Assembly: GCA_965246895.1 (NCBI GenBank) | Contig: OZ251993.1 | Span: forward strand, 838,897 to 902,896 | Direction: 5' to 3' | Length of the DNA stretch: 64,000 nucleotides | DNA from: Alphaproteobacteria bacterium | Lineage (GTDB): Bacteria; Pseudomonadota; Alphaproteobacteria; JAIXQD01 | Shown here: positions 28,475 to 60,032 of the stretch, one piece after another | How positions within the stretch are numbered: position 1 is the stretch's first letter | How the letters are laid out: every line of letters begins with the position of its first letter | The notes under the pieces: generated by a model | Database searches by the model: none | The model's input: only the letters and a program-made list of their open reading frames with translations | What the model was told of the DNA's origin: nothing | Made by a program: the position numbers and the translations under genes

Positions 28475-28513
28475 GTCATTCTTGGTGCTTTTTGCTGCCT
28501 TTTATAGTCCGCT

Positions 28514-38824: not shown

Positions 38825-39901
38825 TTAAGCGGTCTGGCGCAGTAATTCAGGCTGAGCGGTAGAAGCCGGAGCGCCGCAATCGACCCAGCGATAATTGGCA
38901 GTATCGGCAAAGACCGCATGCAAGAGCTTGTTATTCAGGGCATGGCCGGTGGCCACGCCTTCAAAGCGGCCGAGGATCGCACCGCCGCAAAGCGACAGGT
39001 CACCGATCGCATCCAGCAGCTTGTGGCGGGCAAATTCAGTATCGAAGCGGAGACCACCGAGGTTAGCTACAACCGTATCCCAAACCAGGACGTTATTATC
39101 GAGGCTGCCGCCTTTGCCTAAACCGTTCGACCAGACAGCATCAAGCTCGGCAAATAGCGTGAAGGAGCGGGCAGCGGCAATCTCGCGCTTATAAGCGGTA
39201 GGGGTCAGGCGCAGCTCTGCCGATTGGTTGCCAATCAGCGCATTGGTGCGGGTGTAATCGAGCGTAACTTTATAATCGCTAGTAGCCGCAGGCATGAAAC
39301 GCGCGGATTTGCCAGCTTCGGTAATTTCGACCGGCCGCAGGATTTCTAAAACGCGGCGCGGCGCTGATTGCGGCATAATACCCATATGCTCGATCGCAGC
39401 AACGATTGGCGCGGCACTACCATCCATTGCTGGCACTTCCGGGCCATCAATCTCAATCGTGCAATTATCAATGCCGAGGCCAGCAAGAGCGGAGGTAACA
39501 TGCTCGACCGTTGAGACGCGCGCGCCGAAGCTGTTGCCGATAACAGTGCAAAGGCGGGTGTCGACTACATGATCCCAACGCGCAGAAATGGTGTTCTCGC
39601 CGTCTTTCAGATCAGTGCGGATAAACGTGATGCCGCTGTTCGCTGGCGCTGGCAGCAGACGCATGGTGACGGTCGCGCCGCTATGTAGGCCGATATCTGT
39701 CAGCGTCACAGGCTGGACGAGGGTCTGCTGGTAAGGGGGGCAAATAGCCGAATCGAATTTCATATCAACAAGATAGGGCCTGGTATTGGTTGCACCAAAA
39801 CAAGCATTGTGACGCTTTGTTTCAAGGCTAACCAATTGATTTTTATGACTATCCTGTGGGCAGGCCTTCTTCTTCGCCAGGCACAGAAACGTCGTAGGCA
39901 T
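38825..39901 (-). CDS. lpxC: UDP-3-O-acyl-N-acetylglucosamine deacetylase. The ORF-track start at 39901 is probably over-extended; the likely true start is Met-47 (MKFDSAI...) near 39763.
   Basis: LpxC motifs (HSGATVTMRLLPAP..., catalytic His/Asp blocks). The extended N-terminus would overlap the upstream CMD-family gene. Confidence 0.9.
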   Translation of the reverse strand: MPTTFLCLAKKKACPQDSHKNQLVSLETKRHNACFGATNTRPYLVDMKFDSAICPPYQQTLVQPVTLTDIGLHSGATVTMRLLPAPANSGITFIRTDLKDGENTISARWDHVVDTRLCTVIGNSFGARVSTVEHVTSALAGLGIDNCTIEIDGPEVPAMDGSAAPIVAAIEHMGIMPQSAPRRVLEILRPVEITEAGKSARFMPAATSDYKVTLDYTRTNALIGNQSAELRLTPTAYKREIAAARSFTLFAELDAVWSNGLGKGGSLDNNVLVWDTVVANLGGLRFDTEFARHKLLDAIGDLSLCGGAILGRFEGVATGHALNNKLLHAVFADTANYRWVDCGAPASTAQPELLRQTA

Positions 39902-40433
39902 TGAGCGTCACTGAGACGAGGCAATAGCAACCGACGAGATAAGCAAGCTCTGCCGTGCCAGCTTCACCAAAGTGCTTGAGCGCCAATTGATAGGCGGCTT
40001 CCGGCAGTTGCCCGCCACGGCTGAGTGCATAGGCGACATCATAGGCGATGCCTTCTTCTGCAGACAGATCAGCGGGGCGCTGGCCGGTGGTGATGGTCGC
40101 GATCTTTTCGGGCGAGAGGCCGAGGTTTTGAGCGACATGCTCATGCGCATACATTTCATAGCGGGAGCGGAACTGCGCGCCAACGACGAGGATCGCGATC
40201 TCGCGCACCGGTTTTGGCAGCTTTGAATTGACGCCGATGGCGACAATAAAATCCCACACAGGCTTGCCGAATTGCGGGAACTGCAGCATGGCGTTGAACG
40301 GGCCGACCAATGCGCCATCGGCACGCTTCGATACAAAACCTTTCAGACGCGCGGAGATGCCCTCGTTCATTTCATCGTAAAATGGCTTTTGCTCAGGCGT
40401 CAGAGCGGCAGCGGGAATTGGGGGTAGGCGCAT
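39849..40433 (-). CDS. Carboxymuconolactone decarboxylase (CMD/AhpD-like) family protein
   Basis: 194 aa, helical CMD-family pattern. Unusually located between ftsZ and lpxC. Confidence 0.65.
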   Translation of the reverse strand: MRLPPIPAAALTPEQKPFYDEMNEGISARLKGFVSKRADGALVGPFNAMLQFPQFGKPVWDFIVAIGVNSKLPKPVREIAILVVGAQFRSRYEMYAHEHVAQNLGLSPEKIATITTGQRPADLSAEEGIAYDVAYALSRGGQLPEAAYQLALKHFGEAGTAELAYLVGCYCLVSVTLNAYDVSVPGEEEGLPTG

Positions 40434-40503: not shown

Positions 40504-42186
40504 TTAATTCGATTGGCGGCGAAGGAAGGCTGGGATTTCCAGCTCGTCTTCTGTTTGCTGCGGTGCCGATTGGCTAGTTTGCGGCTGTTGATAGCTGCTG
40601 CCTTGCTGCGGTTGTTGCATGGATGGTTGTTGATAGCTGCTTTGGGGCTGGCTGTTGGTATGATTGGGCGTGCCTTGTAGACCGAGGCTGCTCTTCGCAC
40701 GTTCGATCAGCGATGGCTGGCGGCGCACACGTTCTTCAAAGTTCATGTGATTGTTTTGCGACGACTGCTGTGTGCCTTGCGATTGTTGTGATTGATCCGG
40801 TGCATAGCTGGACGAGGTAGGAATGCTGTTATTGTTAGGCATCGCGACTGGCGCAAAGCCGTTATCCGACATAGTTGGCTGCGCGTAGCTTTGCGTGGCA
40901 GCGGATGGCGTTAGCCCAGCTTCGCTTGGCAGTGGCAAATCTTGTGAAACATCGCTGTTCCAATTGCTATCAGACGTGCTGCTAGTCGGTTGCTGATTAC
41001 TTTGCGGCGTCAGCTGCGTATAGCCGGAGGCGGTCCCGCCGCTTGTGTTCTGGCCATGCGTGGAATTGTTTGCCGTCGGCGCCGGTGTCATTTGCGCCTG
41101 ATAGGTCGCGCTTGGCGTGTAGTTGGTAGGGCTGGTTGGGCGGTTCTGCACAACGCTGAATGGCGCGCCGACTGCGCCGAAGTTTGCCGTTGCTGCGGAG
41201 GCCGTTCGCGGCAAAGTGGCAGTGGCCGCTTCGATGCCCGTGGCGACGACAGACACGCGAATCGAGCCTTCGATTTCAGGATTGAACGTTGAGCCGAAGA
41301 TGATGTTGGCATCTGGATCGACTTCCTCGCGAATGCGGTTAGCAGCCTGATCCACTTCATAAAGCGTCATATCCATGCCGCCAGTAATATTAATCAGCAC
41401 GCCGCGTGCACCCTTCATCGAAACATCGTCGAGCAGTGGATTACGAATTGCGGCTTCGGCAGCGTCAAGGGCGCGGGTCGCGCCAGAGGCTTCACCGGTA
41501 CCCATCATCGCCTTGCCCATTTCGGCCATGACGCTACGGATATCGTTGAAGTCGAGATTGATCATACCAGGCATGGTGATGAGGTCGGTCACGCCGCGTA
41601 CGCCCGAATGCAACACGTCATCGGCCATGGTAAAGGCTTGCGCAAATGTCGTCTTCTCGTTCGCGAGGCGGAAGAGGTTGTTGTTCGGAATGACGATCAG
41701 CGTGTCGACATATTGCTGTAGTTCCTGGATGCCGCTTTCGGCTAGGCGCATGCGGTGCGCCCCTTCGAAGCCGAATGGCTTAGTGACGACACCGACCGTG
41801 AGGATGCCGAGTTCGCGTGCCGTGCGCGCCACGACTGGCGCTGCGCCGGTACCGGTGCCGCCGCCCATGCCGGCAGCGATAAAGACCATGTTGCAGCCGG
41901 AAAGCGCTTGCGTGATTTCATCAATCTGCTCTTCCGCGGCAGCGCGACCCATATCGGGGCGGGCGCCTGCACCTAGGCCCTTGGTGAGGCTGGCACCGAG
42001 TTGGATGCGATTTTGCGACAGGCTGTTCGAAAGCGCCTGCGCGTCTGTATTGAGAACGAGGAAATCGACACCCGAAAGATCATTGCGGATCATGTTAGTG
42101 ACAGCATTGCCACCCGCGCCACCAACGCCGCAGATCAGAATGCGGGGGCTAAGGGTTTGCTCTTGCGGGATCGAAAGATTGATCAT
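40504..42186 (-). CDS. ftsZ: Cell division protein FtsZ with long Q/S/T/P-rich C-terminal linker
   Basis: Tubulin signature [11 protein letters not shown]. 560 aa with extended low-complexity linker and a conserved C-terminal peptide. Preceded by GGAG Shine-Dalgarno. Confidence 0.95.
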
Positions 42187-46232: not shown

Positions 46233-46327
46233 AACCGAGGAAGATTAATGGTGGTTGCTCTAATCGCCAAGGGGTGGTTAACAGGCTAAACGCTTATAAA
46301 TAAAGCTGTGTCAGGGTCGCCACGGCC

Positions 46328-47137
46328 TCAAAAAGGCAGAGTCCGCAAGTCTTCGTACTGTGTTGGGTGGCAAAGTAGATAGCGCCCGCGGATCAGCCAG
46401 TTTTCGTCGAAGCACGATAGATCAAGGCTTTCCAGCGCCCCGCCATCATCGATATTGCGGAATGTCAGACCCAATAGCGGTGCCAGCGGCAGGATCGCTG
46501 CTACATCCCAAAGCTTCGTATTGTTTAGGAAGGAAGCAGCACTGCGACCCAGCAAGGTATAGGCAGCAAACAATGCCGCTGCATAGAAATCGCACAAGGC
46601 TGCGCGACCGAACGTATAATTATCGTTCCAAGGCGCTAGCACAATCGATTGGCGATGCAGGGGCTTTACTGGCAATTGTGCAAGCTCCGTCGGCATTGTA
46701 TCGCGCTTCTGTAGATAGGCAGCAGTGCCATCTGTGTAAAGTAATTCACCCAAAGCAGGCAGATTAATCGCGCTGATGGCAGGCTTGCCGTCAATAAATA
46801 GGCTAAGCAAGATTCCCCAAAGCGGCATGCCGACTGAGTATGGCGTGGTGCCATCGATAGGATCCAGCACCCACACGTATTTTGTCTTTTCAATTGTTTC
46901 ACGCACCTGGCTAAGTGGAGCGATAAATTCCTCGTCAATCAAAAAGTGATCGCTAGCATTAGGCAGGGCCGCTAGCCGTTCGGCAAACATGCGGCTGATA
47001 GCGAGATCAGTTTCTGTGACAATCGAATAATCGTCTTTGAAAGATTGTGTAATCTTATCCTGCGCTGCGAGCGCATAGGCGCCTGCTTCGCGGATGAACG
47101 CGATCATGAGGGTAACGCATGGTTCAGGAATTCGCAT
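46328..47137 (-). CDS. Inositol monophosphatase-family phosphatase (SuhB/CysQ/HisN-like)
   Basis: WVLDPIDGT metal-binding motif. Occupies the slot where murB-ddl normally sit. Confidence 0.7.
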   Translation of the reverse strand: MRIPEPCVTLMIAFIREAGAYALAAQDKITQSFKDDYSIVTETDLAISRMFAERLAALPNASDHFLIDEEFIAPLSQVRETIEKTKYVWVLDPIDGTTPYSVGMPLWGILLSLFIDGKPAISAINLPALGELLYTDGTAAYLQKRDTMPTELAQLPVKPLHRQSIVLAPWNDNYTFGRAALCDFYAAALFAAYTLLGRSAASFLNNTKLWDVAAILPLAPLLGLTFRNIDDGGALESLDLSCFDENWLIRGRYLLCHPTQYEDLRTLPF

Positions 47138-47141
47138 ACTA

Positions 47142-48569
47142 TTAGCTGGCTTTCATTACGAGTCCGGCCAACTGGCCGGGCAGGGTCGCAGCCCACTTTG
47201 TAATATCGCCTGCACCGAGACAGATAACAAGATCGCCCGGTTGCGTGAGGCTAGCAACGAGAGCGGGTAGAGTCGCAGGACTTTCCAGCAAATGCACATC
47301 GCGGTGACCGCGGGCAATAATGCCTTCGGCAAGATTTTGTTTATCAATACCTGCGATCGGCTGTTCACCCGCCGCATATACATCGGCGACAATCACCGTA
47401 TCGGCATCGTTGAAGCAAGTGCAAAACGACTCGAACAGATTTTCAAGGCGCGAATAGCGATGCGGCTGCACGAGGGCGATGACGCGCCCATGACTTGGCT
47501 CGACAGCAGCGCGAGCGGCTTTCAGAACCGCGGCGATCTCGACCGGGTGATGACCATAATCGTCGACAATTGTGACGCCGTTTGTGATGCCGGTGACGGT
47601 GAAACGACGCTTAACGCCAGCAAATTTTGCCAAGCCTTGACGAATGACATCTTCTGAAATCTGGAGCATGTGCGCGACGGCAACGGCGGCCAGTGCGTTC
47701 TGTACGTTGTGATGCCCGAACATGGGCAGAAACAGATTGTTCCATTCCAAGGTATTACCAGTTTCGTAATCGGTGACAGCGATATCGAAACTGCATCCAC
47801 CAGGCTGACTCGTGATGTTAATACCGCGGATATCGGCTTGCGGCGAAAATCCGTAAGTAACAATACGCTTGTCAATCACCTGTGCGGCTAAATTTTGTAC
47901 CTCAGTATGATCGGCGCAGAGAACGGCAAAACCATAGAATGGAATACCTTCGACGAAGCGATGATAAGCTTCGCGTACGCGGTCGAACGTACCGTAATGC
48001 TCCATATGCTCGGGATCGATATTGGTGACGATGGCAACCGTGGCGGGCAGCTTATTGAAGCTGCCATCGCTCTCGTCGCTCTCCACGACAATCCAATCAC
48101 CCTGGCCAAGCCGGGCATTAGTGCCGTAAGCGTTGATGACACCGCCATTGACGACGGTAGGATCGAGCTCTGCGGCTTCGAGCAAACAGGCAACCATCGA
48201 GGTTGTTGTCGTTTTGCCATGTGTGCCGGCAACCGCCACTGACCATTTAAGCCGCATCAGTTCAGCGAGCATCTCGGCCCGGCGAACAATGGGGAGGCGG
48301 GCTGCACGCGCGGCGACAAGCTCTGGATTGTCGGGCTTGATCGCTGAAGAAATGATGACAAGATCGGCATCCGTCACATTTTTAGCGGCTTGGCCGATGG
48401 TCACGGGGATGCCGAGTGCGCGTAGGCGGGCGACGTTATAATTATCGATAACGTCTGAGCCTTGTATTTTATAACCGAGGTTATGCAAAATCTCGGCAAT
48501 CCCACTCATACCGATACCGCCAATGCCGACAAAGTGTAGCTGTCCGATTGTGGGTGATAAATGGCGCAT
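47142..48569 (-). CDS. murC: UDP-N-acetylmuramate--L-alanine ligase
   Basis: [14 protein letters not shown]-loop and Mur ligase architecture. Confidence 0.9.
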
Positions 48570-48575
48570 ACAGTC

Positions 48576-49667
48576 TTATAGAGTTTGCTCAACCAAATCA
48601 GCAAGCCTAATGGCTGCATGCGGCTGGCCGAGGGCATGCGCGGCGGCGGCGGCGGCGCTTAGCCGTTCCGGATTTTGTAGTAGCTGGTTAAGACGCTGGG
48701 CAAGGCTATCTGGCGTCAACCATTCCTGCGGCACGTACCAGCCAGTGCCGGCTTTTTCGAAAGCTTCGGCATTGCGGCGTTGCTCGTCCATGGAGCCGCC
48801 TTTGGGGATCGGCACGAAAATCGCCGGACGGCCAACCACTAACAATTCCGCGGCCGTACTGGCACCCGCGCGGCAGATAACGAGCTGCGTTTTCGCTAGG
48901 CGTTCGGCCATATCGGTGAAGAAGGGCGCAACCGAGGCTGTGATGCCAGCGGCTTCAAGGCGGGCTGTTATCGCTTCCGCGTCTGCACCGTTATATTGCA
49001 GCGAGAGGCGGATACGGCGGCGTAACTGGTCAGGTAACAACAGCAGGGCGGGTGGCACGACTTCGCCGAAGATGCTGGCGCTTTGGCTGCCGCCGACAAC
49101 GAGAATGCGGATTGGATCAGTTGCATTCGGCGCCATGTACGGCTGCATGCGACTGGCGATAATAGCCGAGCGGACGGGATTGCCGGTCTCGATCACCTTG
49201 TCGTGCGGCAGCGATTCCGCGCCCGATATCATGCGGAAGGAAATCGCTAGTTTGCTGGCGATGGGCAACAGCTTGCTGTTAGCCAGGCTGACCTTAGTTG
49301 CTTGTTCATGAATAATAAGCGGGCGGCGAAGGCTCCAGCATCCAAGTGCAGGTGCGAATGATGGATAACCACCAAAGGCAACAAGGCAAACGGCGCGGCG
49401 ACGCTGCATATGGCGGCGCGCCTGCCAAGCGGCTTTGAGGATGATCTTTACTGTTTCAAGCTTCCCTTTTAGACCGGGTAAAACAGGCGTAGCGGGCAGC
49501 GTGACCAATTCGACGTCATGCAGCTTGCCAGCATATTTTTCGCCGCGATTATCAGTATAGATCACGACGCGATGTCCGCGAGATGTGAGTTCACGCGCCA
49601 ATGCTTCGGCTGGGAAAAAATGGCCGCCGGAACCGCCAGCTGCCAGCGCGATTGTTTGCGTTTTCAT
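48576..49667 (-). CDS. murG: Undecaprenyl-PP-MurNAc-pentapeptide-UDPGlcNAc GlcNAc transferase
   Basis: GGSGGHFFPAEAL N-terminal motif, GT28 family. Confidence 0.9.
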   Translation of the reverse strand: MKTQTIALAAGGSGGHFFPAEALARELTSRGHRVVIYTDNRGEKYAGKLHDVELVTLPATPVLPGLKGKLETVKIILKAAWQARRHMQRRRAVCLVAFGGYPSFAPALGCWSLRRPLIIHEQATKVSLANSKLLPIASKLAISFRMISGAESLPHDKVIETGNPVRSAIIASRMQPYMAPNATDPIRILVVGGSQSASIFGEVVPPALLLLPDQLRRRIRLSLQYNGADAEAITARLEAAGITASVAPFFTDMAERLAKTQLVICRAGASTAAELLVVGRPAIFVPIPKGGSMDEQRRNAEAFEKAGTGWYVPQEWLTPDSLAQRLNQLLQNPERLSAAAAAAHALGQPHAAIRLADLVEQTL

Positions 49668-50854
49668 CGGCTGCTGACAGTCGTCACAGGCCGGGTGGTG
49701 CTGCGCCGCGTAAGTGCCAAAACGAAGCCCATGCCGAGTGCGAGCGCAATAAGAGAGGAGCCGCCGTATGAGACAAAGGGCAGGGTCATGCCTTTAGTGG
49801 GGATCAAGTGTAAGGAGGACGCCATATTGATGGCTGCCTGCAGGCCGAACTGCGCCATCAGGCCTGAGACTGCGAGCAGCACGAACAGATCGCGCTGCTG
49901 AGCTGCACGCCAAAATCCGCGCAGCACGACAACGAGAAACAGGCCAAGCAGCACGCTTGACCAAACGAGGCCTAATTCTTCACCAGACACAGAGAAGATG
50001 AAGTCGGCATGCGCATCAGGCAATGCACGCTTAACAATACCTTGGCCTGGGCCGGTACCGAGCCAGCCGCCGTTGTTGAAAGCATCGAGCGAGCGGTCGA
50101 TTTGATAGGTATCGCCCGCGGCAGGATTCATAAACCGGTCGATCCGGCTGGAGACATGCGGAAATACCAAGTATGCGCCGCCGAGTCCCACTACGCCTAA
50201 TATGCCAAGGCCTGCGACAATTATAAGAGGGATACCTGCAAGAAACAGCTGGCAGAACCAGATGGCAGTGACAACAATGGTCATGCCCAGATCAGGTTGC
50301 AGCAGGAGTACCGCGACGCAAATAAAATAGAGGCCGGTCGAGATTAACTTGCCAGGAAATTTTGCCTCGTCATAAGCCTTGGCAAAGAGCCAAGCAGAGA
50401 CGACAGCGAATACCGGCTTCAAAAACTCAGATGGTTGTATATTGAGGCCAGGCAAATGGATCCAGCGCGCTGCGCCTTTGATCTGCGAGCCAGCGATAAG
50501 AGTTGCAAAGGTGAGGGCTAGAAAAACTGGTAAAAGCGCCAATGCGCAAAGCCGCACCTGCCGCGGCGATAGCCAAGAGACGATGTAGATGATCCCAAGG
50601 CTAGGAATTAGCAGCGCGATATGATGATAAACGAAATAAAAACGATCAAGACCAATACGGGTTGCAACCGCCGGACTTGCGGCAAAAATTAGTAGAATGC
50701 CGAACAGTAGGATCGCAATCAGCGCACCAAGAATAACGCGATCCACCCCCTGCCACCAATCGGCAAAGCTACCAATCGGATTGCGTGTGTTGCGACTCTG
50801 CACACCAGCTGGCAAGGCACCCGGTAAAAACCCACGAAGATTATCGCTGCGCAT
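49664..50854 (-). CDS. ftsW: Peptidoglycan glycosyltransferase FtsW (SEDS family)
   Basis: 396 aa polytopic membrane protein with SEDS family pattern. Lies between murD and murG. Confidence 0.9.
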   Translation of the reverse strand: MRSDNLRGFLPGALPAGVQSRNTRNPIGSFADWWQGVDRVILGALIAILLFGILLIFAASPAVATRIGLDRFYFVYHHIALLIPSLGIIYIVSWLSPRQVRLCALALLPVFLALTFATLIAGSQIKGAARWIHLPGLNIQPSEFLKPVFAVVSAWLFAKAYDEAKFPGKLISTGLYFICVAVLLLQPDLGMTIVVTAIWFCQLFLAGIPLIIVAGLGILGVVGLGGAYLVFPHVSSRIDRFMNPAAGDTYQIDRSLDAFNNGGWLGTGPGQGIVKRALPDAHADFIFSVSGEELGLVWSSVLLGLFLVVVLRGFWRAAQQRDLFVLLAVSGLMAQFGLQAAINMASSLHLIPTKGMTLPFVSYGGSSLIALALGMGFVLALTRRSTTRPVTTVSSR

Positions 50855-52212
50855 CAGCCTGCGGCTCCAACCTCAAGCGCGCGGACGGCGTTGCGGAACA
50901 ATTCGCCCCGCTTTTCAAAATTCGGGAATTGATCGAAGCTGCTACAAGCGGGGGAGAGCAGCACCACTGCGTGATCAAGGTCTTCTTCCTTTGCCATGAC
51001 GGCCGCATGCTTGACGGCGCGATCAAGGGTTTCGTCGATCGTATATGTAACGCCCTGCTTATCGAGCCAGGTGGCCATATCATTGGCTGCCTCACCAATC
51101 AAAAACGCATGGCGGACAGGTTTCAGATAACCATCAAGCGCGCTGTAATCACTGGTTTTGGCGCGGCCGCCGGCAATCCAATAAATTGGATCGTAACAGA
51201 CGAGGGCTTTTTGCACGGCGCCGATGTTTGTTGCCTTGCTGTCGTTAATAAAGCGGATGTCATCAATTGTATCGACCAATTCCTGCCTGTGCGATAGGCC
51301 AGGGAAACTGCGAATGGCTGCGATAATGGCTTCGCTTTGTAAGCCACTCGCGTGACAGGCGGCATAAGCGGCGGCGATGTTCTGTGCGTTATGAGCGCCA
51401 GGCAGCGTTATAATATTGTCGATTTGCGCAACGTTTTTGCCTTCGACATAGAGCATGCCATCACTAACCGAAATCCCAGCATCGAATTTCTGCATGGCAC
51501 TAATTGAAATAACTGTGCCTGGCAGGGTTCCTGCAAGCTTTGAACTGGCGGCATCATCGATGCCGATGATAGATGTTTTCGCGCCTTCAAAAATACGCCC
51601 TTTGGCTGCGATATAGCCGTCTATGCCGTTATGGCGATCAAGATGATCGGGCGTAATGTTGAGTAATACGGCTACGTCGAAATTGAAGGATGGGAGTAAG
51701 TCTAGTTGATAACTAGACAGCTCCAACACATAAGTGCCATCGCTATTCATCGGCGGTAGCGTTAAAGCAGCCTGCCCAAGATTGCCGCCAACCGCATTTT
51801 TTTTGCCGCATTGGTTGAGAATATGCGCGACCAATGCTGTTGTCGTCGATTTGCCGTTGGTGCCTGTGATGGCAATCGTTTTGGCGTTCGGCTGGGCCTG
51901 GAGCAGCAATTCGATATCGCTTGCAATCGGAATGCCGGCGTCTTTAAATCGCGCAACGATAGGGTGTGGCTTTGGATATTGCGTCGCGATTCCCGGTGAG
52001 AGCACCAGTGTATCGATACCTTTAAGATCGGCAGTTGCAAGATCTGCCAAAGTCAGCCCGGCAGTTACAGCTTCCTCGCGAACGGATTCTTGTTCATCCC
52101 AAGCTATTACTTTGGCACCGGCGGCGATTAGCGCCTGGCTTACAGAAATACCGGTTATCCCTAAAGCGAAAACTGCATATGTTTTATTGCGGACGAAGGG
52201 TAAATCTAGCAT
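50854..52212 (-). CDS. murD: UDP-N-acetylmuramoylalanine--D-glutamate ligase
   Basis: GTNGKSTT P-loop and Mur ligase architecture. Confidence 0.9.
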   Translation of the reverse strand: MLDLPFVRNKTYAVFALGITGISVSQALIAAGAKVIAWDEQESVREEAVTAGLTLADLATADLKGIDTLVLSPGIATQYPKPHPIVARFKDAGIPIASDIELLLQAQPNAKTIAITGTNGKSTTTALVAHILNQCGKKNAVGGNLGQAALTLPPMNSDGTYVLELSSYQLDLLPSFNFDVAVLLNITPDHLDRHNGIDGYIAAKGRIFEGAKTSIIGIDDAASSKLAGTLPGTVISISAMQKFDAGISVSDGMLYVEGKNVAQIDNIITLPGAHNAQNIAAAYAACHASGLQSEAIIAAIRSFPGLSHRQELVDTIDDIRFINDSKATNIGAVQKALVCYDPIYWIAGGRAKTSDYSALDGYLKPVRHAFLIGEAANDMATWLDKQGVTYTIDETLDRAVKHAAVMAKEEDLDHAVVLLSPACSSFDQFPNFEKRGELFRNAVRALEVGAAG

Positions 52213-52218
52213 GAGCGA

Positions 52219-53310
52219 CTACCTTAGTTTGAGGGTAGATAAGCCTACCAAGGCAAGGATGAAAGCGATAATCCAAAAACGGATCACAACTGTTGATTCC
52301 GACCAGCCTAATTTTTCAAAGTGATGATGCAAAGGCGCCATGCGGAACAGCCGTTTGCCTTTGGTGGCCTTAAAATAACCGACCTGCAAAATGACTGAAA
52401 CGGTTTCTGCAACAAACAGGCCGCCAATAATGAAAAGGACTAATTCGTGCTTAACAGCAACTGCAATGGCTCCAATCGCGCCACCTAACGCAAGCGAGCC
52501 AGTATCACCCATAAAGACTTCCGCTGGAGGTGCATTATGCCAAAGAAAGCCAAGGCAAGCGCCGACTAAAGCGCCACAGAAAATCGTCAGTTCGCCCGTG
52601 CCGGGTACATGGTTGATGCCAAGATAATTAGCGAAGACGACGTTTCCTGCAAGATATGCAATGACACCGAAGCTGCCTGCCGCTAAAGCAATCGGCACAG
52701 TTGCCAGACCATCAAGACCGTCGGTGATATTGACGGCATTCGCAGCCCCAGAAATGACAAGCGCTGCAAAAGGAATGAAAAAAAATCCTAGCGGCAATAG
52801 CACATTATTCAGGAACGGAATGGCCAAGCTGTTTGGTTCTGGATAGGTGGAATGCGTGATTATGAAGTAAACGGCGATGGCAGAAATAATGAGCTCCCCG
52901 CCAAGCCGCACGCGTCCGGAGACACCTTTGTTATTCACCTTGCGGGTCAACTTCATATAATCATCGGCAAAGCCGATGACGCCGAAACCGAGCGTTACGG
53001 CCAATACCGTCCAAACATAAAGATTTGTGAGATCGGCCCACAGCAGTGTTGAGATTGTGACGGAGATCAGCATCATCAAGCCGCCCATGGTAGGCGTACC
53101 TTTTTTCTTCCCGTGCGAATCTGCTAAATATTCAAGGATCGGCTGGCCCTCGGCTTGCTTCGATTTAAGCCAGCGGATGATAGGCGGGGCGATCACAAAA
53201 CAGATCACCATGGCGGTTAGCGTTGCGGCACCGGCCCGGAAGGTCAGGTACCGGAACAGATTGAAAAAGATAAACTGATCGGCATAGGGTGCCAGCAGAT
53301 TATAAAGCAT
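52219..53310 (-). CDS. mraY: Phospho-N-acetylmuramoyl-pentapeptide transferase
   Basis: 363 aa polytopic membrane protein with MraY conserved blocks ([13 protein letters not shown]). Confidence 0.95.
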
Positions 53311-53348
53311 GCCACATCATACCTAGCTAAAATGCGCTGGCTAGGGGC

Positions 53349-54962
53349 CTAGGCGGCAGTTTCCAAGCACCATCTAGCCACGTCGGCGTCGTCGAATGGC
53401 ACGGTTTCAGTGCCAATGATTTGCCCTTGTTCATGGCCTTTGCCAGCGATTACCAGCAAATCGTCTGTTTGCAGTTCAGAGATAGCGCTTTGAATGGCGC
53501 GGGCGCGATCGGCAATTTCAATAGAACCAGGTGCTGCGGCCATAATCATCGACCGGATAATAATCGGCACTTCTGTACGCGGATTATCGTCGGTCACGAT
53601 GACGCGATCGGCAAGACGGCTAGCGATCTCACCCATTAGAGGCCGCTTGCCGGGATCGCGATCACCGCCGCAGCCGAAAACTACAATAAGCCGGCCCTTT
53701 GTGTGCGGTCGCAAAGCTTTCAAGACAGTTTCGAGCCCATCTGGCGTATGGGCATAATCGATATACACAGGTGCACCGCTAGCGGCTGAACCAATACGCT
53801 CCAACCGCCCGCGGACGGGCGATAGTCGCGATAGATTTTCGAGTGTATGCCCTGTGCCGCCGCCGGTAGCGATAACGAGCGCTGCGGCGCAAAGGGCGTT
53901 CAAAGCTTGAAATGTGCCGATCAAGGGTAGTGACACATCAAAGCTTGCGCCATCGGCTTCGACTGTAAGGCGCTGGCCGTCAGGTAGTTTCTCGCTTGCA
54001 ACCAGATGCAACGTTTCGCCATTTTCCCCATAGCTGACGACGTGCAGACCGGCCGCTTCAGCGGCCGCCTTCAGGGCTGAATAAGCGGGGTCGTCGGCAT
54101 TCAACACTGCAGATGCACCACGCGGCAGTAATTCAGAAAACAGCCGGGTCTTGGCAGCCTGGTATGCGTCTGCTGTCGGATGATAATCCAGATGATCGCG
54201 GGTGAGATTGGTGAAGGCCGCAGCCTGCAATTTCACGCCGTCTAGCCGGAACTGGTCAAGAGCATGGCTGGAAGCTTCCAGCGCCAGATGCGTGACGTTA
54301 TTTTCAGCCAGCATAGCAAGATCGCGATGCAGGCTGACGGTATCGGGCGTAGTTAGCATGCTGGTCTGGGTCAAGTTCGGCGCCATCAATCCCAGTGTGC
54401 CGAGGCTGGCCGCTTTATGGACAGTCATCGCCCATAATTCGCGTGTGAATTGCGCGACCGACGTTTTGCCGTTCGTCCCCGTGATAGCAATAATCGTGCG
54501 CGGTTGCCGTTCATAGAATTTGGCGCAGATTTCTGCAAAGCGACGGCGCGGATCAGGATCAGTGACAAGCGCGACGTGCGCGCTGTCTGTATTCGTGGTC
54601 AACTCGGTGCCAAGCGGCGCTAAAATAGCGCTGGCACCAGCAGCGATGGCAGCAGCAATATATTGGCGGCCATCAGTTTTGTTGCCGGGTAAGGCTGCGA
54701 AGAGATTGCCGGGAGCGACAAGGCCGGAATGAAGCGCGACGCCAGTAATTACAGGGTCGAGATGCGTTTGCGCGCGGGCACTAACGGCGCAGCTGGGTGG
54801 CAGCAGCTGGAAGAGATGGCATTGCGGCTTCATCAGTATTGCCATCCATAACGCTATTAAGCGAATAGGCAATAGGCTGTGCGAATGGTTGTGCTGGAGC
54901 CTCGCGATTGAACGGCTGTGGTGCTGGCTGCTGAGGCGCGACTGGATCATCCTCAGCCTCAA
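53349..54962 (-). CDS. murE: UDP-MurNAc-L-Ala-D-Glu--2,6-diaminopimelate ligase. The ORF-track start at 54962 is probably over-extended; the likely true start is Met-44 (MKPQ...) at 54833.
   Basis: TGTNGKTS P-loop. The Met-44 start (54833) is preceded by GGATGG. The ORF-track start would overlap ftsI by 180 nt. Confidence 0.9.
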   Translation of the reverse strand: MRLRMIQSRLSSQHHSRSIARLQHNHSHSLLPIRLIALWMAILMKPQCHLFQLLPPSCAVSARAQTHLDPVITGVALHSGLVAPGNLFAALPGNKTDGRQYIAAAIAAGASAILAPLGTELTTNTDSAHVALVTDPDPRRRFAEICAKFYERQPRTIIAITGTNGKTSVAQFTRELWAMTVHKAASLGTLGLMAPNLTQTSMLTTPDTVSLHRDLAMLAENNVTHLALEASSHALDQFRLDGVKLQAAAFTNLTRDHLDYHPTADAYQAAKTRLFSELLPRGASAVLNADDPAYSALKAAAEAAGLHVVSYGENGETLHLVASEKLPDGQRLTVEADGASFDVSLPLIGTFQALNALCAAALVIATGGGTGHTLENLSRLSPVRGRLERIGSAASGAPVYIDYAHTPDGLETVLKALRPHTKGRLIVVFGCGGDRDPGKRPLMGEIASRLADRVIVTDDNPRTEVPIIIRSMIMAAAPGSIEIADRARAIQSAISELQTDDLLVIAGKGHEQGQIIGTETVPFDDADVARWCLETAA

Positions 54963-56775
54963 CCGGGGCGATCACCTGCTGCGGGTCTTCGTTATCGATC
55001 TCGACCTGAGGTGCATTCGGCGCGGTAGCTTTTACTTCTTGCGTCTGGAATTTACTGTCGGGGAGAATGCCCGCCTTATCGCCGGGCGCGAAGACAGGCG
55101 CGATGCCAAGGATCGGTGCAATCTGGCTGACAATCTTGCCGACCGCTGGCGCGGCGACCCAGCCCCCGGTTGCATAACCGTAGGATTTCGCATTCGGATG
55201 CGGCTCGTCGACCATCACGAAGACGATGTATTTTGGATTTGAGATTGGAAAGGCGCCAACAAAGGATGATAATCGTCCACCACCTTTATAGCCATGACCA
55301 TTGATCTTATCAGCAGTTCCGGTTTTACCGCCAACCTCATAGCCGGGTGCATCTGCGCTTTTCGCTGTGCCGCCTGTTACAACAAGCCGCATCAGCCCGC
55401 GCATTAAGATTGACGTTTGTTCAGAAATCACGCGTTCGCCAACGATCGGCTGGTTGGCTGGACGTTTTAGCAAGGTTGGCTGGATTAACTCACCGCCATT
55501 GACGATAGCGCTAACGCCGCGCACCAAATGCAGCGGGCTGACGGCCATACCATGACCAAAGGCGATCGTCATACTGTTCACGTCACGCCAGGGGCGCGGC
55601 ACCATAGGATCGCCACGCTCCGGCACTTCGAGCTTAGCCTGTTTAGTAAAGCCTAGCTTCGTTAGGAACGCTTGCTGCCATTCGGTGCCAACCCGCTCGA
55701 ACATATGAACGGAGCCGATGTTCGACGATTCCTCCATAATCTCGGAGACATTGTAGTTGTGCTTGGCCGGGTGGAAGTCAGTGATCGTAAAACGGCCAAC
55801 GCGGATATTGTGTGTCGTGTCGAATACGTCATTCATCTTTACCTGGCCACTATCGAGCGCCATGGCTGTATTGAAGATCTTAAAGGTCGAGCCCATCTCG
55901 TAAACGCCGAGCGTATCGCGATTGAATTTCGCATCGTCGGAGGCAAGGCCCGGTTCATGCGGATCAAAATCAGGCAAGGAGACCATGGCCATGACTTCGC
56001 CGGTTTTCGCGTCCATCACCATGCCGGCACCGCCAACGGCTGTAAAACTATCGATCGCGCTTTGTACCTCGCGTTTAACGATATATTGCAGACGGGCATC
56101 AACCGAAAGCTTAAGCGGCGTGCTGTCGGTGCGCAGCCGCGCATCCATAGTCTTTTCAAGACCGGCGAGGCCTTCTTGGTCGACGCCTAAGAAGCCGAGC
56201 GCATGCGCAAACAGCGCACCATGCGGATAAACGCGGCGGAATTCATTCTGGAATTCAATGCCGGGGAGGCCAAGCGTATTTGCAGCCGCATACTGTTGTG
56301 GTGTCAGGTGGCGCTTGATCCAGGTGAAGCGCTTATTACTTTTGAGGTCGCTGATAAGATGCGCCCGATCAAGATCGGGAAATAGTTCAATCAGTTTATC
56401 AGCAGTTTTATCAGGCTCAATGACGCGAATGGCATCGGCATAGAGCGAGACGGTGGGGAGCGAAGTTGCTAGCGTCTGGCCATTGCGGTCGACGATATCA
56501 GCACGGGCGGTGCTTAAAGCAGCGTCAGCGGCGGCAAGTTTCGGCTCGCCATCTATGCCGCGAATTACAGTTGCGTCGACGAGCTTGCCGAAAATGACGA
56601 GGAAGCAAAGTACAAACCCGCACATCACCCAAAGGATACGACAGCGGGCGACGGTGACAGCACCGCGAACCTTGCAAGCACTAGGGGCATCGAAGTGCCA
56701 GCCAGCACCGCTGAAAAATGTCGGCTTTTCTTTAGGCCGGTCTACAGTCAGGGAAGGGTTGGGATGGTCATTCAC
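54781..56775 (-). CDS. ftsI: Peptidoglycan D,D-transpeptidase FtsI (PBP3) with Pro/Gln-rich C-terminal tail
   Basis: Transpeptidase SxxK motif GSTFKIF, with PBP dimer and transpeptidase domains. Confidence 0.9.
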   Translation of the reverse strand: MNDHPNPSLTVDRPKEKPTFFSGAGWHFDAPSACKVRGAVTVARCRILWVMCGFVLCFLVIFGKLVDATVIRGIDGEPKLAAADAALSTARADIVDRNGQTLATSLPTVSLYADAIRVIEPDKTADKLIELFPDLDRAHLISDLKSNKRFTWIKRHLTPQQYAAANTLGLPGIEFQNEFRRVYPHGALFAHALGFLGVDQEGLAGLEKTMDARLRTDSTPLKLSVDARLQYIVKREVQSAIDSFTAVGGAGMVMDAKTGEVMAMVSLPDFDPHEPGLASDDAKFNRDTLGVYEMGSTFKIFNTAMALDSGQVKMNDVFDTTHNIRVGRFTITDFHPAKHNYNVSEIMEESSNIGSVHMFERVGTEWQQAFLTKLGFTKQAKLEVPERGDPMVPRPWRDVNSMTIAFGHGMAVSPLHLVRGVSAIVNGGELIQPTLLKRPANQPIVGERVISEQTSILMRGLMRLVVTGGTAKSADAPGYEVGGKTGTADKINGHGYKGGGRLSSFVGAFPISNPKYIVFVMVDEPHPNAKSYGYATGGWVAAPAVGKIVSQIAPILGIAPVFAPGDKAGILPDSKFQTQEVKATAPNAPQVEIDNEDPQQVIAPVEAEDDPVAPQQPAPQPFNREAPAQPFAQPIAYSLNSVMDGNTDEAAMPSLPAAATQLRR

Positions 56776-56827: not shown

Positions 56828-57364
56828 TCAGCGCGCTTGAAACGAGGCCAGCAGTAACTTCACACTGTTTGGCGTGGTCGGTTGTGAAGAAGGAGCTAGC
56901 TTTTGAGATACTGTCGATAGCATTGGCGAAGCACTGCGGCTGGCTGTTACGATTGGCTTAATCACAGGTGCCGGAGTGGAGGCTACAATCGGTTCCGGCA
57001 TTGGAGCAATCAGCGGCGGCTTGGAAATGGTCGCAGCCGCAATCGCAGCCGTTGGCGCATCCACCGAAGGATCAACACGCTGTGCTACGACCCGGTTCAT
57101 GTCATGCAGAGCGGCGACGCGTTGCGTTTTAGTAGCCTCAAGATGAAGATACTTAGAGGCAAGGGCTTCGATCCGGCTCGGCTCTGTAAGGTAAGTCCAT
57201 TCAGCGCCTAGCACCTGGATATTTTCCTGCTCGGATACAATCTGACGATCGGTGCTGGCGATCTTGGCGCGCACTTCATCAACGGCATAACTCGTCTGAT
57301 ACAGCGCAGCCCCGGCACAAGCAGCAAGAAGGTAAACAGCGAAGGTCAGACGTGCACTTATCAT
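56828..57364 (-). CDS. ftsL: Cell division protein FtsL (alphaproteobacterial long form)
   Basis: Single N-terminal TM, coiled coil, and Pro/Ala-rich tail. Lies between rsmH and ftsI. Confidence 0.6.
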   Translation of the reverse strand: MISARLTFAVYLLAACAGAALYQTSYAVDEVRAKIASTDRQIVSEQENIQVLGAEWTYLTEPSRIEALASKYLHLEATKTQRVAALHDMNRVVAQRVDPSVDAPTAAIAAATISKPPLIAPMPEPIVASTPAPVIKPIVTASRSASPMLSTVSQKLAPSSQPTTPNSVKLLLASFQAR

Positions 57365-57367: not shown

Positions 57368-58405
57368 TTATCCTGCCTGGTTGGTTAGATTGTTGGTAGC
57401 GAGCGCGGCAAGTCCAGAAGACAAGCCAGTTATGGGGGCCGCGGCCCGTTCCGCTGCCCGAAGGCGTGCTGAACGAGACCGCGGGTTCGCTCGGCACTCT
57501 TCGGGGGAAGGGGGCATGGCCGAGCGGGTTAACACCTTAAAACTGGGCCGGGCGTCATTCGCTGTCCCAGGCAGAGACGGCAGATGGCGCGACGGCAACA
57601 CGCTGTGCGCAGACCGCGCACGCATGAAGTTTTTAACGATTCGGTCTTCGAGGGAATGGAAAGAAACGACGACCAATCGCCCCTCGGGATTTAAAATATC
57701 TTCGGCTGCTTCTAGCGCGCGTTCGAGTTCGCCCAGCTCATCATTCACATGCAGACGCAGCGCTTGAAAAGTGCGCGTGGCGGGATCTATCCCATCTTTC
57801 GAGCGGGGCACGACTTTGCGAATAATCTCAGCCAGTTGAAGGGTCGTTTCGATAGGCGCAATCTGTCGAGCTTCGACAATGGCAGCAGCGACGCGGCGGG
57901 AGCGCTTCTCTTCGCCGAGTTCATAGATGATGTTTGCGAGCGCGTCAGCGGCCATGGAATTCACAATCTGAGCTGCGCTTTGGCCGGTATTGTTATCCAT
58001 CCGCATATCGAGCGGGCCGTCTTCGCGGAAGCTGAAGCCGCGGGCGGCATCGTCTAATTGCGGCGAGGAGACGCCAAGATCGAGCACCACACCATCGACC
58101 GCAGTGACGCCAATGCCAGCCAACAGATGCTTCATATCGCCGAAATTACCGGGGATCAGCGTGAAGCGGTCGCCATAGATGGCGGTGAATTTCAAGGCAC
58201 GTTGCGCGGCAGCAGGGTCGCGATCAATCGCGATCACGTTGGTGTTGGCGGCTTGCAGCATTTTCTCTGTATACCCGCCGAGACCAAAGGTGCCGTCGAC
58301 ATAGGTGCCGCCATCTTTCAGCGCTAGCAGTTGGAGAGCCTCGTCGCGCATGACAGGGAAATGGCTGAATGTTTCATCGGCTGGAGGCAGCATGTCGTCG
58401 CTCAT
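57368..58405 (-). CDS. rsmH: 16S rRNA (cytosine1402-N4)-methyltransferase RsmH (MraW). The ORF-track start at 58522 is over-extended; the start is taken as Met-40 (MSDDML...), which makes the mraZ stop overlap as ATGA.
   Basis: VDGTFGLGGYTEKML SAM motif. Confidence 0.9.
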   Translation of the reverse strand: MSDDMLPPADETFSHFPVMRDEALQLLALKDGGTYVDGTFGLGGYTEKMLQAANTNVIAIDRDPAAAQRALKFTAIYGDRFTLIPGNFGDMKHLLAGIGVTAVDGVVLDLGVSSPQLDDAARGFSFREDGPLDMRMDNNTGQSAAQIVNSMAADALANIIYELGEEKRSRRVAAAIVEARQIAPIETTLQLAEIIRKVVPRSKDGIDPATRTFQALRLHVNDELGELERALEAAEDILNPEGRLVVVSFHSLEDRIVKNFMRARSAHSVLPSRHLPSLPGTANDARPSFKVLTRSAMPPSPEECRANPRSRSARLRAAERAAAPITGLSSGLAALATNNLTNQAG

Positions 58406-58902
58406 TGCGCACCCCCATGCAGACGACGGGCATCGGCGATTATTTTGGACAATGAGATATCTTGTGCCTGCGCAGCCTTGCGCTGCTTTGCCATGTAGGT
58501 TTCGAGCTTTTCTGGCTGCCAAAGCTGGAACGTATTGCGACGACCAAAGAAAGCCACGGTCTCGGTAATGTCGACACCGCTAAACAAGGCTTCGGGAATG
58601 GTCACCCGGCCTTCAGGATCGAACGGCAAATGTTGAGAGCCACCAAAGATCGTGGTTTCGATTAGCTCATAAGTTTCAGGGGGTAGGTTCAAATTATCGA
58701 GCGAGGCGGAGAGCAATTCGAGATGCTGGGTCGAGCAGGCTTCAAGCGCGTCATGATGCAAAGCGCGATAGATGACAATGCCACCGCTACCGCCTTCTTG
58801 CTGATTTAGCGCGTTGCGGAAAGACGCAGGAACGCTGACGCGGCCCTTGCGGTCGATCTTGTTAAAATGGGTGGATAAGAATTGATCCACTACGCCCCCC
58901 AA
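58402..58902 (-). CDS. mraZ: Transcriptional regulator MraZ
   Basis: 166 aa with two MraZ/SpoVT-AbrB repeats (DRKGRVSVP..., GRVTIP...). First gene of the dcw cluster. Confidence 0.9.
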   Translation of the reverse strand: MGGVVDQFLSTHFNKIDRKGRVSVPASFRNALNQQEGGSGGIVIYRALHHDALEACSTQHLELLSASLDNLNLPPETYELIETTIFGGSQHLPFDPEGRVTIPEALFSGVDITETVAFFGRRNTFQLWQPEKLETYMAKQRKAAQAQDISLSKIIADARRLHGGAQ

Positions 58903-60030: not shown

Positions 60031-60032
60031 TT

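What the first reader, a model, noticed from the sequence alone, without database searches (positions are those of the whole stretch)
46233..54962. Rearranged dcw cluster: no murF between murE and mraY, IMPase-family gene where murB-ddl normally sit, CMD-family gene between ftsZ and lpxC
Reading the minus strand gives mraZ-rsmH-ftsL-ftsI-murE-mraY-murD-ftsW-murG-murC-[IMPase-like]-ftsQ-ftsA-[unknown]-ftsZ-[CMD-like]-lpxC. There are only 38 bp between the murE stop (53349) and the mraY start (53310), so murF is not in its canonical slot. murB and ddl are likewise absent between murC and ftsQ; an inositol-monophosphatase-family gene (WVLDPIDGT) is there instead. A carboxymuconolactone-decarboxylase-family gene with its own terminator separates ftsZ from lpxC. 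Together with the unknown gene between ftsA and ftsZ, that makes three non-canonical genes inside one of the most conserved bacterial gene clusters. The essential genes murF, murB and ddl must sit elsewhere.
Basis: partly seen in the sequence, partly recalled or inferred. Interest (0 to 1): 0.55.

Follow-up and report, generated by a model that had tools for sequence, protein, structure and literature searches.

The report
Lineage-specific rearranged cell-division gene cluster
An uncultured small-genome alphaproteobacterium has a real but fairly ordinary variant of the cell-wall and cell-division (dcw) gene cluster: three wall-precursor genes (murF, murB, ddl) are missing from it and two unrelated genes sit inside it, a layout its few known close relatives largely share.

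Summary
On the minus strand the order is mraZ-rsmH-ftsL-ftsI-murE-mraY-murD-ftsW-murG-murC-[IMPase-family]-ftsQ-ftsA-[521-aa unknown]-ftsZ-[CMD-like]-lpxC-bamD-recN-ligA. murE and mraY are 38 bp apart. No murF, murB or ddl, nor any remnant of them, occurs in the 64 kb.

This is a trait of a small clade, not of this genome alone.
- The closest relative (L094) has murC-IMPase-ftsQ.
- L083 has murE-mraY with no murF, then murC-IMPase-murB-ftsQ-ftsA-[homologous unknown]-ftsZ.
- L087 has murC-[two small reverse ORFs]-ftsQ.
- Outgroup alphaproteobacteria (L088, L090, L091, L092) keep the canonical murE-murF-mraY and murC-murB-ddl-ftsQ.

The IMPase-family protein keeps all its metal-binding motifs, abuts murC and evolves quickly. 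It matches no characterised subfamily. The unknown gene has low GC, evolves very quickly and carries a domain shared with phage families of unknown function. The CMD-like gene scores below Pfam's threshold. It lies after a strong terminator hairpin that follows ftsZ, so it is outside the cluster.

Whether murF, murB and ddl lie elsewhere could not be tested. Intact FtsI transpeptidase motifs argue that they do. I rate this a new variant of a known cluster, of low-to-moderate interest.

The parts
58402..58902 (-). mraZ (ORF limits; the true start may be internal)
   Evidence: PF02381 MraZ, E 3e-15
57368..58522 (-). rsmH/mraW (the ORF overlaps mraZ by 121 nt; the true start is probably later)
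   Evidence: PF01795, E 6e-105; gaps
56828..57364 (-). ftsL
   Evidence: NF049847 FtsL_COG5462, 73.9 bits against a cutoff of 50
54781..56775 (-). ftsI (class B PBP) with intact STFK296, SSN350 and KTGT484 motifs
   Evidence: PF00905 and PF03717; motifs
53349..54962 (-). murE (meso-DAP type)
   Evidence: NF001124 equivalog, 617 bits against 476
53311..53348 (-). 38-bp murE-mraY spacer where murF canonically sits
   Evidence: ORF coordinates; no MurF-like sequence by tblastn; L083 has the same junction with a 1-nt overlap
52219..53310 (-). mraY
   Evidence: PF00953 and MraY_sig1
50854..52212 (-). murD
   Evidence: TIGR01087, 381 bits against 212
49664..50854 (-). ftsW
   Evidence: PF01098, E 1e-68
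48576..49667 (-). murG
   Evidence: PF03033 and PF04101
47142..48569 (-). murC
   Evidence: TIGR01082, 539 bits against 335
46328..47137 (-). IMPase-superfamily phosphatase gene in the murB-ddl slot (the database copy P0001 starts 10 codons later, at 47107)
   Evidence: PF00459, 71.8 bits. Below the cutoff for HisN, CysQ and SuhB. DEE68-70, DPIDGT92-97 and WD210-211 are invariant in the subfamily. The start lies 4 nt after the murC stop. Orthologues sit at the same place in L094 and L083
45285..46232 (-). ftsQ
   Evidence: PF08478 and PF03799
43924..45285 (-). ftsA
   Evidence: PF14450 and PF02491
42316..43881 (-). 521-aa gene of unknown function between ftsA and ftsZ. It has a conserved core at about residues 195-300 (GRQTQWCTA...QMHF) and a helical C-terminal half
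   Evidence: No Pfam or NCBIfam hit. GC 47% against about 55%. A homologue occupies the same slot in L083 (28% identity, E 1e-21). 937 representatives match through the core domain. 51 of the 60 aligned sequences hit phrog_17056
40504..42186 (-). ftsZ (560 aa, long C-terminal linker)
   Evidence: PF00091 and PF12327
40454..40479 (-). Terminator-like hairpin (GCCCGGC...GCCGGGC then UUUU) directly after ftsZ
   Evidence: Sequence; -20.9 kcal/mol, z -4.2
39849..40433 (-). 194-aa CMD/AhpD-like gene (tentative), outside the dcw unit
   Evidence: PF02627, 20.5 bits, below the 23-bit threshold. PDB 2pfx E 0.14, with the CxxC cysteines replaced
38825..39901 (-). lpxC (the domain starts at ORF residue 58; the likely start is the Met at 39763)
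   Evidence: PF03331, E 1e-92; sequence

Best explanation
[quoted passage not shown] The layout is typical of a small, deep-branching clade of uncultured alphaproteobacteria; the identical proteins sit on a 1.64-Mb contig. Shown: in the ancestor of the clade murF and ddl left the cluster, while murB left it in some members only. An IMPase-family phosphatase gene took the murC-ftsQ slot, and a fast-evolving gene carrying a phage-type domain was inserted between ftsA and ftsZ. From rsmH to ftsA the genes are co-directional, with gaps of -182 to +95 nt. Inferred: they are still read as one polycistronic unit with internal promoters, ending at the hairpin after ftsZ. The IMPase gene is then co-expressed with murC and ftsQ as a passenger and not as a peptidoglycan enzyme. 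Also inferred: murF, murB and ddl are encoded elsewhere in the genome, and wall synthesis follows the standard pentapeptide pathway. The CMD-like gene is a separate downstream gene in a slot that varies among alphaproteobacteria.
For: The clade is supported by the MurC tree and identities: window, L083 and L087 share 74-80%, all others 63-70%, and L094's flanking fragments are 83-86% identical. Shared derived features are these: L083 has murE-mraY adjacent, murC-IMPase-murB-ftsQ and ftsA-[homologous unknown]-ftsZ; L094 has murC-IMPase-ftsQ; L087 has murC-[2 small ORFs]-ftsQ. Outgroups L088, L090, L091 and L092 are canonical. No remnants of the missing genes occur in the window. The IMPase active-site motifs are invariant and dN is far below dS. 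The gene overlaps murC and murB in L083. Its more distant orthologues (40-45% identity) sit in unrelated contexts, and 80 loci with other IMPase relatives show no dcw linkage; both fit a relocated housekeeping gene. FtsI keeps its SxxK, SxN and KTG motifs. MurE is a standard equivalog. [quoted passage not shown] The terminator hairpin after ftsZ is.
Against: The rest of the genome could not be searched, so murF, murB and ddl lying elsewhere is inference only. Co-transcription is inferred from spacing alone, and the promoter and terminator scans were at chance level. The IMPase gene is retained next to murC in three divergent genomes, which could also reflect a functional link. Only four clade members are known, and three of them are short contigs.
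Confidence: 0.75

Rival explanations
1. murF, ddl and, in this genome, murB have been lost altogether from a reduced 1.64-Mb genome. The organism would then build or acquire its wall precursors in a non-standard way, for example by scavenging D-Ala-D-Ala or muropeptides from a host or prey, or by using non-homologous enzymes.
For: None of the three genes occurs in the 64 kb, and no remnants remain. The genome is small (1,644,468-bp contig). All four clade members lack ddl in the cluster, and both members whose murE-mraY junction is visible (window and L083) lack murF there.
Against: The 64-kb window is about 4% of the genome. MurC, MurD, MurE, MraY, MurG and FtsW are intact, and FtsI has intact DD-transpeptidase motifs that imply D-Ala-D-Ala-ended donors. 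L083 still has murB. Ddl and MurF are reported in all peptidoglycan-containing organisms surveyed, including reduced intracellular ones (PMC5814848). murB and ddl outside the cluster is common (PMC8871954).
Confidence: 0.06
2. The IMPase-family phosphatase was recruited into the cluster because it acts in envelope or division physiology, for example by dephosphorylating a sugar-phosphate or nucleotide intermediate linked to precursor supply. It would then not be a neutral passenger.
For: It is retained directly after murC in three genomes whose MurC proteins are 74-83% identical. It overlaps murC and murB in L083. Its catalytic motifs are invariant. It does not meet the equivalog cutoffs for HisN, CysQ or SuhB, so its substrate is open.
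Against: L087, a clade member, lacks it at this position. Orthologues at 40-45% identity lie in unrelated contexts. None of 80 loci with IMPase relatives shows a dcw association. From general knowledge of the pathway, no step of lipid II synthesis needs an IMPase-type phosphatase. Its non-synonymous divergence is 3-4 times that of its neighbours. No paper among the best-ranked hits of a search for IMPase together with dcw, murC and ftsQ mentioned inositol monophosphatase.
Confidence: 0.12
3. The 521-aa gene between ftsA and ftsZ is a lineage-specific division factor that modulates FtsA or FtsZ. It would not be a mobile-element-derived passenger.
For: A homologue occupies the same slot in L083. 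The gene is co-directional, 42 nt after ftsA and 129 nt before ftsZ.
Against: GC is 47% against about 55%. It diverges very fast: 27-28% identity, against 75-77% for the neighbouring ftsA. Its only conserved domain is shared with phage families of unknown function and with giant multi-copy proteins. In L083 a further reverse-strand gene lies in the same interval, so the slot simply tolerates insertions.
Confidence: 0.1
4. The layout is an assembly or binning artefact.
For: None was found.
Against: The same junctions occur in independent assemblies from different samples (L083/L084, L086/L087, L094). Gene spacing is tight and there is no composition break at the junctions.
Confidence: 0.01

Closest known systems
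Canonical alphaproteobacterial dcw cluster, as in metagenomic relatives L088 and L090 (mraW-ftsL-ftsI-murE-murF-mraY-murD-ftsW-murG-murC-murB-ddl-ftsQ-ftsA-ftsZ ... lpxC-bamD-recN)
   Same: The window has the same 13 genes in the same order and orientation, the same downstream lpxC-bamD-recN(-ligA) block, and tight spacing.
   Different: murF, murB and ddl are absent from the cluster. An IMPase-family gene sits between murC and ftsQ, and an unknown gene with a phage-type domain sits between ftsA and ftsZ.
Escherichia coli dcw cluster and other bacterial clusters in which murB, ddl or murC lie outside (PMC8871954)
   Same: This is precedent that precursor genes, above all murB and ddl, can be encoded away from the cluster without any change to the pathway.
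   Different: E. coli keeps murF between murE and mraY, and keeps ddlB before ftsQ. Here the normally very stable murE-murF-mraY run is broken, and unrelated genes are inserted.
IMPase-superfamily histidinol-phosphate phosphatases (HisN; PDB 5eq7 and 5yht)
   Same: These are the best sequence matches among solved structures (E 2e-9 and 4e-9). The DPIDGT and WD metal-binding motifs are shared.
   Different: The TIGR02067 HisN score is 73.6 bits against a cutoff of 275, and it covers only the N-terminal half. The C-terminal half is divergent. The protein belongs to a separate subfamily with members annotated as Omnitrophota and Alphaproteobacteria and tblastn relatives in Omnitrophota, Planctomycetota and Lentisphaeria genomes.
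Phage protein families phrog_17056 and phrog_28193 (function unknown), with a faint PcfJ-like (PF14284) signal
   Same: The core domain of the 521-aa protein has homologues with E values down to 1e-34, and 51 of the 60 aligned sequences fall in these phage families.
   Different: The window protein itself does not reach the family thresholds. It has its own N-terminal region and a helical C-terminal half, and it sits in a chromosomal dcw cluster.
Carboxymuconolactone decarboxylase / AhpD-like family (PF02627)
   Same: It is similar in size and mostly helical in the model, with a weak match to the family core.
   Different: It scores below Pfam's gathering score, and the cysteines of the AhpD-type CxxC motif are replaced.

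Membership tests
[quoted passage not shown] | Co-directional block that begins mraZ-rsmH-ftsL-ftsI and ends ftsQ-ftsA-ftsZ, with mur, mraY and ftsW genes in between | tested here: met
[quoted passage not shown] | murF between murE and mraY (canonical Gram-negative form) | tested here: not met
   The spacer is 38 bp, and tblastn finds only paralogue hits
[quoted passage not shown] | murB-ddl between murC and ftsQ (canonical alphaproteobacterial form, as in L088, L091 and L092) | tested here: not met
   An IMPase-family gene is there instead; no remnants; canonical outgroups
[quoted passage not shown] | Co-transcription as one or a few long polycistronic mRNAs | not testable with these tools
   Only spacing (-182 to +95 nt from rsmH to ftsA) and a terminator hairpin after ftsZ are available
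Inositol monophosphatase superfamily (PF00459) | Score above Pfam's gathering threshold | tested here: met
   71.8 bits against 27
Inositol monophosphatase superfamily (PF00459) | Metal-binding motifs: acidic E/D, DPxDGT and WDxAA | tested here: met
   DEE68-70, DPIDGT92-97 and WD210-211, invariant in 9 subfamily members
HisN histidinol-phosphatase (TIGR02067), CysQ (TIGR01331), IMPase/SuhB (NF008027) | Score above the NCBIfam equivalog cutoff | tested here: not met
   73.6 against 275.15, 45.2 against 228.8, and 20.5 against 332
Inositol monophosphatase superfamily (PF00459) | Mg-dependent phosphomonoesterase activity and a defined substrate | not testable with these tools
   Needs an enzyme assay
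Carboxymuconolactone decarboxylase / AhpD-like (PF02627) | Score above Pfam's gathering threshold | tested here: not met
   20.5 bits against 23, E 4.6e-4; no NCBIfam hit
Carboxymuconolactone decarboxylase / AhpD-like (PF02627) | CxxC(x)3H active-site motif of the AhpD-type members | tested here: not met
   In the alignment to 2pfx the query has RYEMYAHEH where the chain has CFYCLVAHG
Carboxymuconolactone decarboxylase / AhpD-like (PF02627) | All-helical AhpD-like fold | tested here: inconclusive
   The single-sequence AlphaFold model is all-helical but has mean pLDDT 51.6; no fold search was run
phrog_17056 / phrog_28193 domain family (PcfJ-like?) | Direct profile hit by the window protein | tested here: not met
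   No families in Pfam or PHROGs
phrog_17056 / phrog_28193 domain family (PcfJ-like?) | Significant sequence homology to family members through the conserved core (invariant G221, W226, C227, Q259) | tested here: met
   phmmer finds 937 hits at E<1e-3 and 30 at E<1e-10. 51 of the 60 aligned sequences hit phrog_17056. PcfJ appears in only 1 of 60

The most novel reading that the evidence does not exclude
The clade has truly dispensed with MurF and Ddl (and MurB in this genome). It would make or acquire peptidoglycan precursors by an unconventional route, with the cluster-embedded IMPase-family enzyme and/or the phage-domain protein as new players in envelope synthesis or division.
Probability: 0.05. 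Interest if true: 0.8.

Novelty: new variant of a known kind. Interest (0 to 1): 0.2.

Why it matters
The dcw cluster is among the most stable gene arrangements in bacteria, and the murE-murF-mraY run is rarely broken in Gram-negative rods. This finding documents a small alphaproteobacterial clade in which that run is broken and unrelated genes are tolerated inside the cluster. It shows that the gene-order constraint can relax in reduced genomes, and it gives a natural test of ideas that link gene order to Mur-enzyme complex assembly (PMC10214165). It also flags two uncharacterised genes, an IMPase-subfamily phosphatase and a phage-domain protein, that are probably co-expressed with division genes. 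If murF and ddl prove to be absent from the whole genome, the case would become important. As it stands it is a descriptive synteny variant.

Tried and rejected
1. The genome-contig scan with the IMPase protein was swamped by the universal WVLDPIDG motif. It did show that no GTDB representative has a relative above about 32% identity overall, and none of the 80 loci it returned has dcw genes nearby.
2. Exact look-ups of window proteins and of the identical database proteins P0001 and P0242 found no indexed contig. The rest of the 1.64-Mb genome therefore could not be read, and murF, murB and ddl could not be sought there.
3. The word-based homologue search for the 521-aa protein found only itself. 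The exhaustive representative search was needed.
4. Single-sequence AlphaFold models of the 521-aa and CMD-like proteins were too poor to use (pLDDT 35.7 and 51.6), so no fold searches were run.
5. A profile search of the domain family against PDB sequences found nothing.
6. Viral-contig scans with alignments of the unknown protein failed because no conserved stretch was long enough.
7. The JGI metagenome scan with an FtsQ alignment returned only canonical outgroups.
8. The consensus promoter and terminator scan was at chance level and missed the ftsZ hairpin.
9. I considered and rejected three ideas. A fused MurE-MurF or MurC-Ddl is excluded by lengths of 537 and 475 aa and by scores far below the cutoffs of the bifunctional models. 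A divergent MurF hidden in the 473-aa ORF with no Pfam hit at 61340-62761 is excluded by the lack of any tblastn hit. An assembly artefact is excluded by independent contigs that share the junctions.
Full report
**Observation.** The window's minus strand carries a continuous co-directional block. Pfam and NCBIfam identify its genes as follows:
- mraZ (58402-58902)
- rsmH (57368-58522)
- ftsL (56828-57364)
- ftsI (54781-56775)
- murE (53349-54962; equivalog NF001124, 617 bits against 476)
- mraY (52219-53310)
- murD (50854-52212)
- ftsW (49664-50854)
- murG (48576-49667)
- murC (47142-48569)
- an inositol-monophosphatase-superfamily gene (46328-47137; PF00459, 71.8 bits)
- ftsQ (45285-46232)
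- ftsA (43924-45285)
- a 521-aa gene with no family hit (42316-43881)
- ftsZ (40504-42186)
- a 194-aa gene with a sub-threshold CMD match (39849-40433)
- lpxC, bamD, recN and ligA

The murE-mraY spacer is 38 bp. All gaps from rsmH to ftsA lie between -182 and +95 nt. Pfam scans of the other large ORFs of the window found no murF, murB or ddl. tblastn with MurF, MurB and Ddl taken from relatives hit only the paralogues murE and murC, so no pseudogene remnants are present.

**Three corrections.** First, the CMD assignment is weak: PF02627 scores 20.5 bits, below the 23-bit gathering score. The best PDB match is 2pfx at E 0.14, and the cysteines of the AhpD-type CxxC motif are replaced. Second, the convincing terminator-like hairpin (40454-40479; GCCCGGC/GCCGGGC followed by UUUU; -20.9 kcal/mol, z -4.2) lies between the ftsZ stop and the start of the CMD-like gene. 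It ends the dcw unit and does not belong to the CMD-like gene. The structure downstream of that gene is not significant (z -1.5). Third, the murE ORF start is probably later than 54962, because the family match begins at residue 57.

**Which organism.** The identical IMPase, MurC and unknown proteins are on record from one NCBI/ENA contig of 1,644,468 bp. This points to a small genome. MurC is only 64-69% identical to a very large number of alphaproteobacterial proteins, from MAGs labelled Rhodospirillales, Azospirillaceae and Magnetospirillum. The downstream lpxC-bamD-recN order matches the alphaproteobacterial outgroup L088. The organism is a deep-branching, uncultured alphaproteobacterium. 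I could not name it more precisely.

In a MurC tree the window groups with L083 and L087 (74-80% identity). All other sequences fall outside at 63-70%.
- L094, a 1.5-kb contig from another sample, is closer still. Its MurC C-terminus is 83% and its FtsQ N-terminus 86% identical to the window's. Its order is murC-IMPase-ftsQ, exactly as in the window.
- L083/L084 show ftsI-murE-mraY with no murF, then murD-ftsW-murG-murC-IMPase-murB-ftsQ-ftsA-[601-aa homologue of the unknown gene]-[286-aa reverse gene]-ftsZ.
- L086/L087 show murG-murC-[two small reverse ORFs]-ftsQ, without murB, ddl or the IMPase gene.
- Outgroup alphaproteobacteria L088/L089 and L090, together with L091 and L092 from the JGI metagenome scan, have the canonical murE-murF-mraY and murC-murB-ddl-ftsQ.

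Loss of murF and ddl from the cluster is therefore ancestral to this small clade. murB left later in some members. The murC-ftsQ interval is a hot spot for rearrangement. The layout is a lineage trait and not an assembly artefact.

**The IMPase-family gene.** It keeps the superfamily's metal-binding signature: DEE68-70, DPIDGT92-97 and WD210-211. These residues are invariant across nine members of its subfamily. It does not reach the equivalog cutoffs for HisN (73.6 against 275), CysQ or IMPase/SuhB. Its nearest solved relatives are histidinol-phosphate phosphatases at E about 1e-9, matching over part of the protein only. It starts 4 nt after the murC stop. In L083 it overlaps both murC and murB, so co-expression with them is likely. 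It evolves 3-4 times faster at non-synonymous sites than the flanking gene segments (dN 0.38 against 0.08-0.11). dN is still far below the saturated dS, so the gene is functional but weakly constrained. Orthologues at 40-45% identity sit in unrelated neighbourhoods. None of the 80 loci with IMPase relatives in GTDB representatives shows a dcw association. One clade member lacks the gene at this site. The most economical reading is that a housekeeping phosphatase of unknown substrate moved into the gap left by murB-ddl. A dedicated envelope role remains possible but lacks support.

**The 521-aa gene.** Its GC content is 47%, against about 55% for its neighbours. Its homologue at the same position in L083 is only 27-28% identical, while the adjacent ftsA is 75-77% identical. 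An exhaustive search found 937 representative proteins at E<1e-3. Nearly all of the best 150 listed match mainly through one core domain at about residues 195-300. G221, W226, C227 and Q259 are invariant, and H261 and D275 nearly so. The domain often occurs in several copies in proteins of 1000-2500 aa. Of the 60 aligned sequences, 51 match phage family phrog_17056 and 50 match phrog_28193, both of unknown function. PcfJ-like (PF14284) appears only faintly. No solved structure is related by profile, and the single-sequence model is unusable. The gene is best described as a fast-evolving passenger, probably derived from a mobile element, in a slot that tolerates insertions; L083 has a second, reverse-oriented gene there. 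A division-related role cannot be excluded.

**Where are murF, murB and ddl?** This could not be tested. The one genome-collection scan was saturated by the universal IMPase motif, and the source genome is not in the position index. Indirect evidence favours their presence elsewhere. MurC, MurD, MurE, MraY, MurG and FtsW are standard. FtsI keeps the STFK, SSN and KTGT motifs of a DD-transpeptidase, which acts on D-Ala-D-Ala-terminated donors. L083 still has murB. [quoted passage not shown]

**Comparison and verdict.** This is a bona fide dcw cluster: 13 canonical genes in canonical order. It is a derived, clade-specific variant. The unusual points are the broken murE-murF-mraY run, which is normally very stable and has been linked to Mur-ligase complex assembly (PMC10214165), and the two unrelated genes embedded in the operon. 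No paper among the best-ranked hits of a search for IMPase together with dcw, murC and ftsQ mentioned inositol monophosphatase. The CMD-like gene lies outside the unit, in a slot that also varies in a canonical relative: L088 carries a histidine-kinase gene there. I rate this a new variant of a known kind, with low-to-moderate interest (0.2). The one reading that would make it important is genome-wide absence of murF and ddl. I put that at about 5%, and a search of the complete genome would settle it.

Noticed in passing
window 42316-43881 (-): The core domain of the 521-aa protein (consensus YYGRGTQWCTA..D...FD.YN..G.L.VL....EKYQ.HF) defines a large uncharacterised family of more than 900 representatives. 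Some are giant proteins with several copies, and phage families phrog_17056 and phrog_28193 belong to it. Cys227 is invariant and His261 and Asp275 nearly so, which could form a catalytic triad. No solved structure is related by sequence profile.
   Followed up: partly
window 46328-47137 (-) and L094 393-1196: The IMPase-family gene diverges much faster than its immediate neighbours in the same genome pair: 56% amino-acid identity against 83-86%, and dN 0.38 against about 0.1. Its metal-binding motifs nevertheless stay invariant.
   Followed up: yes
window 43924-45285 (-): FtsA is 74-77% identical within the clade but only about 37% identical to outgroup alphaproteobacteria, and FtsQ about 33%. 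MurC, MraY and the FtsZ core stay at 63-72%. The clade's FtsA and FtsQ are therefore unusually divergent.
   Followed up: no
window 40454-40479 (-): A strong terminator-type hairpin sits directly after ftsZ. The consensus terminator scan missed it because its U-run has only four bases.
   Followed up: yes
window about 20000-28500 (+): A chemotaxis and signalling block (cheA, cheW, an MCP gene, cheR and a GGDEF gene), together with a methyltransferase gene and a UPF0176/rhodanese gene, has GC of about 0.50 against about 0.55-0.60 elsewhere. It may be a horizontally acquired or compositionally distinct segment.
   Followed up: no
window 60030-60422 (-): A bacterial class A RNase P RNA (308 bits) lies just upstream of the dcw cluster. 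Three tRNA genes are at 8733-8805, 9170-9249 and 20889-20960.
   Followed up: no
window 59314-60030 (+), 60462-61253 (-), 61340-62761 (+): Three sizeable ORFs (238, 263 and 473 aa) between mraZ and an AmiC-type amidase gene (62793-63698) have no Pfam hit at E<=1e-5. The 473-aa ORF is not a hidden MurF, because tblastn gives no hit.
   Followed up: partly
L083 14781-15641 (-) and L087 1946-2655 (-): Relatives carry other clade-specific genes with no convincing Pfam match inside the cluster, on the opposite strand. L083 has a 286-aa gene between the unknown gene and ftsZ. L087 has two genes of 119 and 116 aa between murC and ftsQ. None has a counterpart in the window.
   Followed up: partly
L081 10001-10834, L082 2157-2990: Two independent contigs that carry a 45%-identical IMPase orthologue, here next to rluB-like and rsmD-like genes, both end about 170 bp after it. 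This suggests a repeat or an assembly-breaking feature downstream.
   Followed up: no
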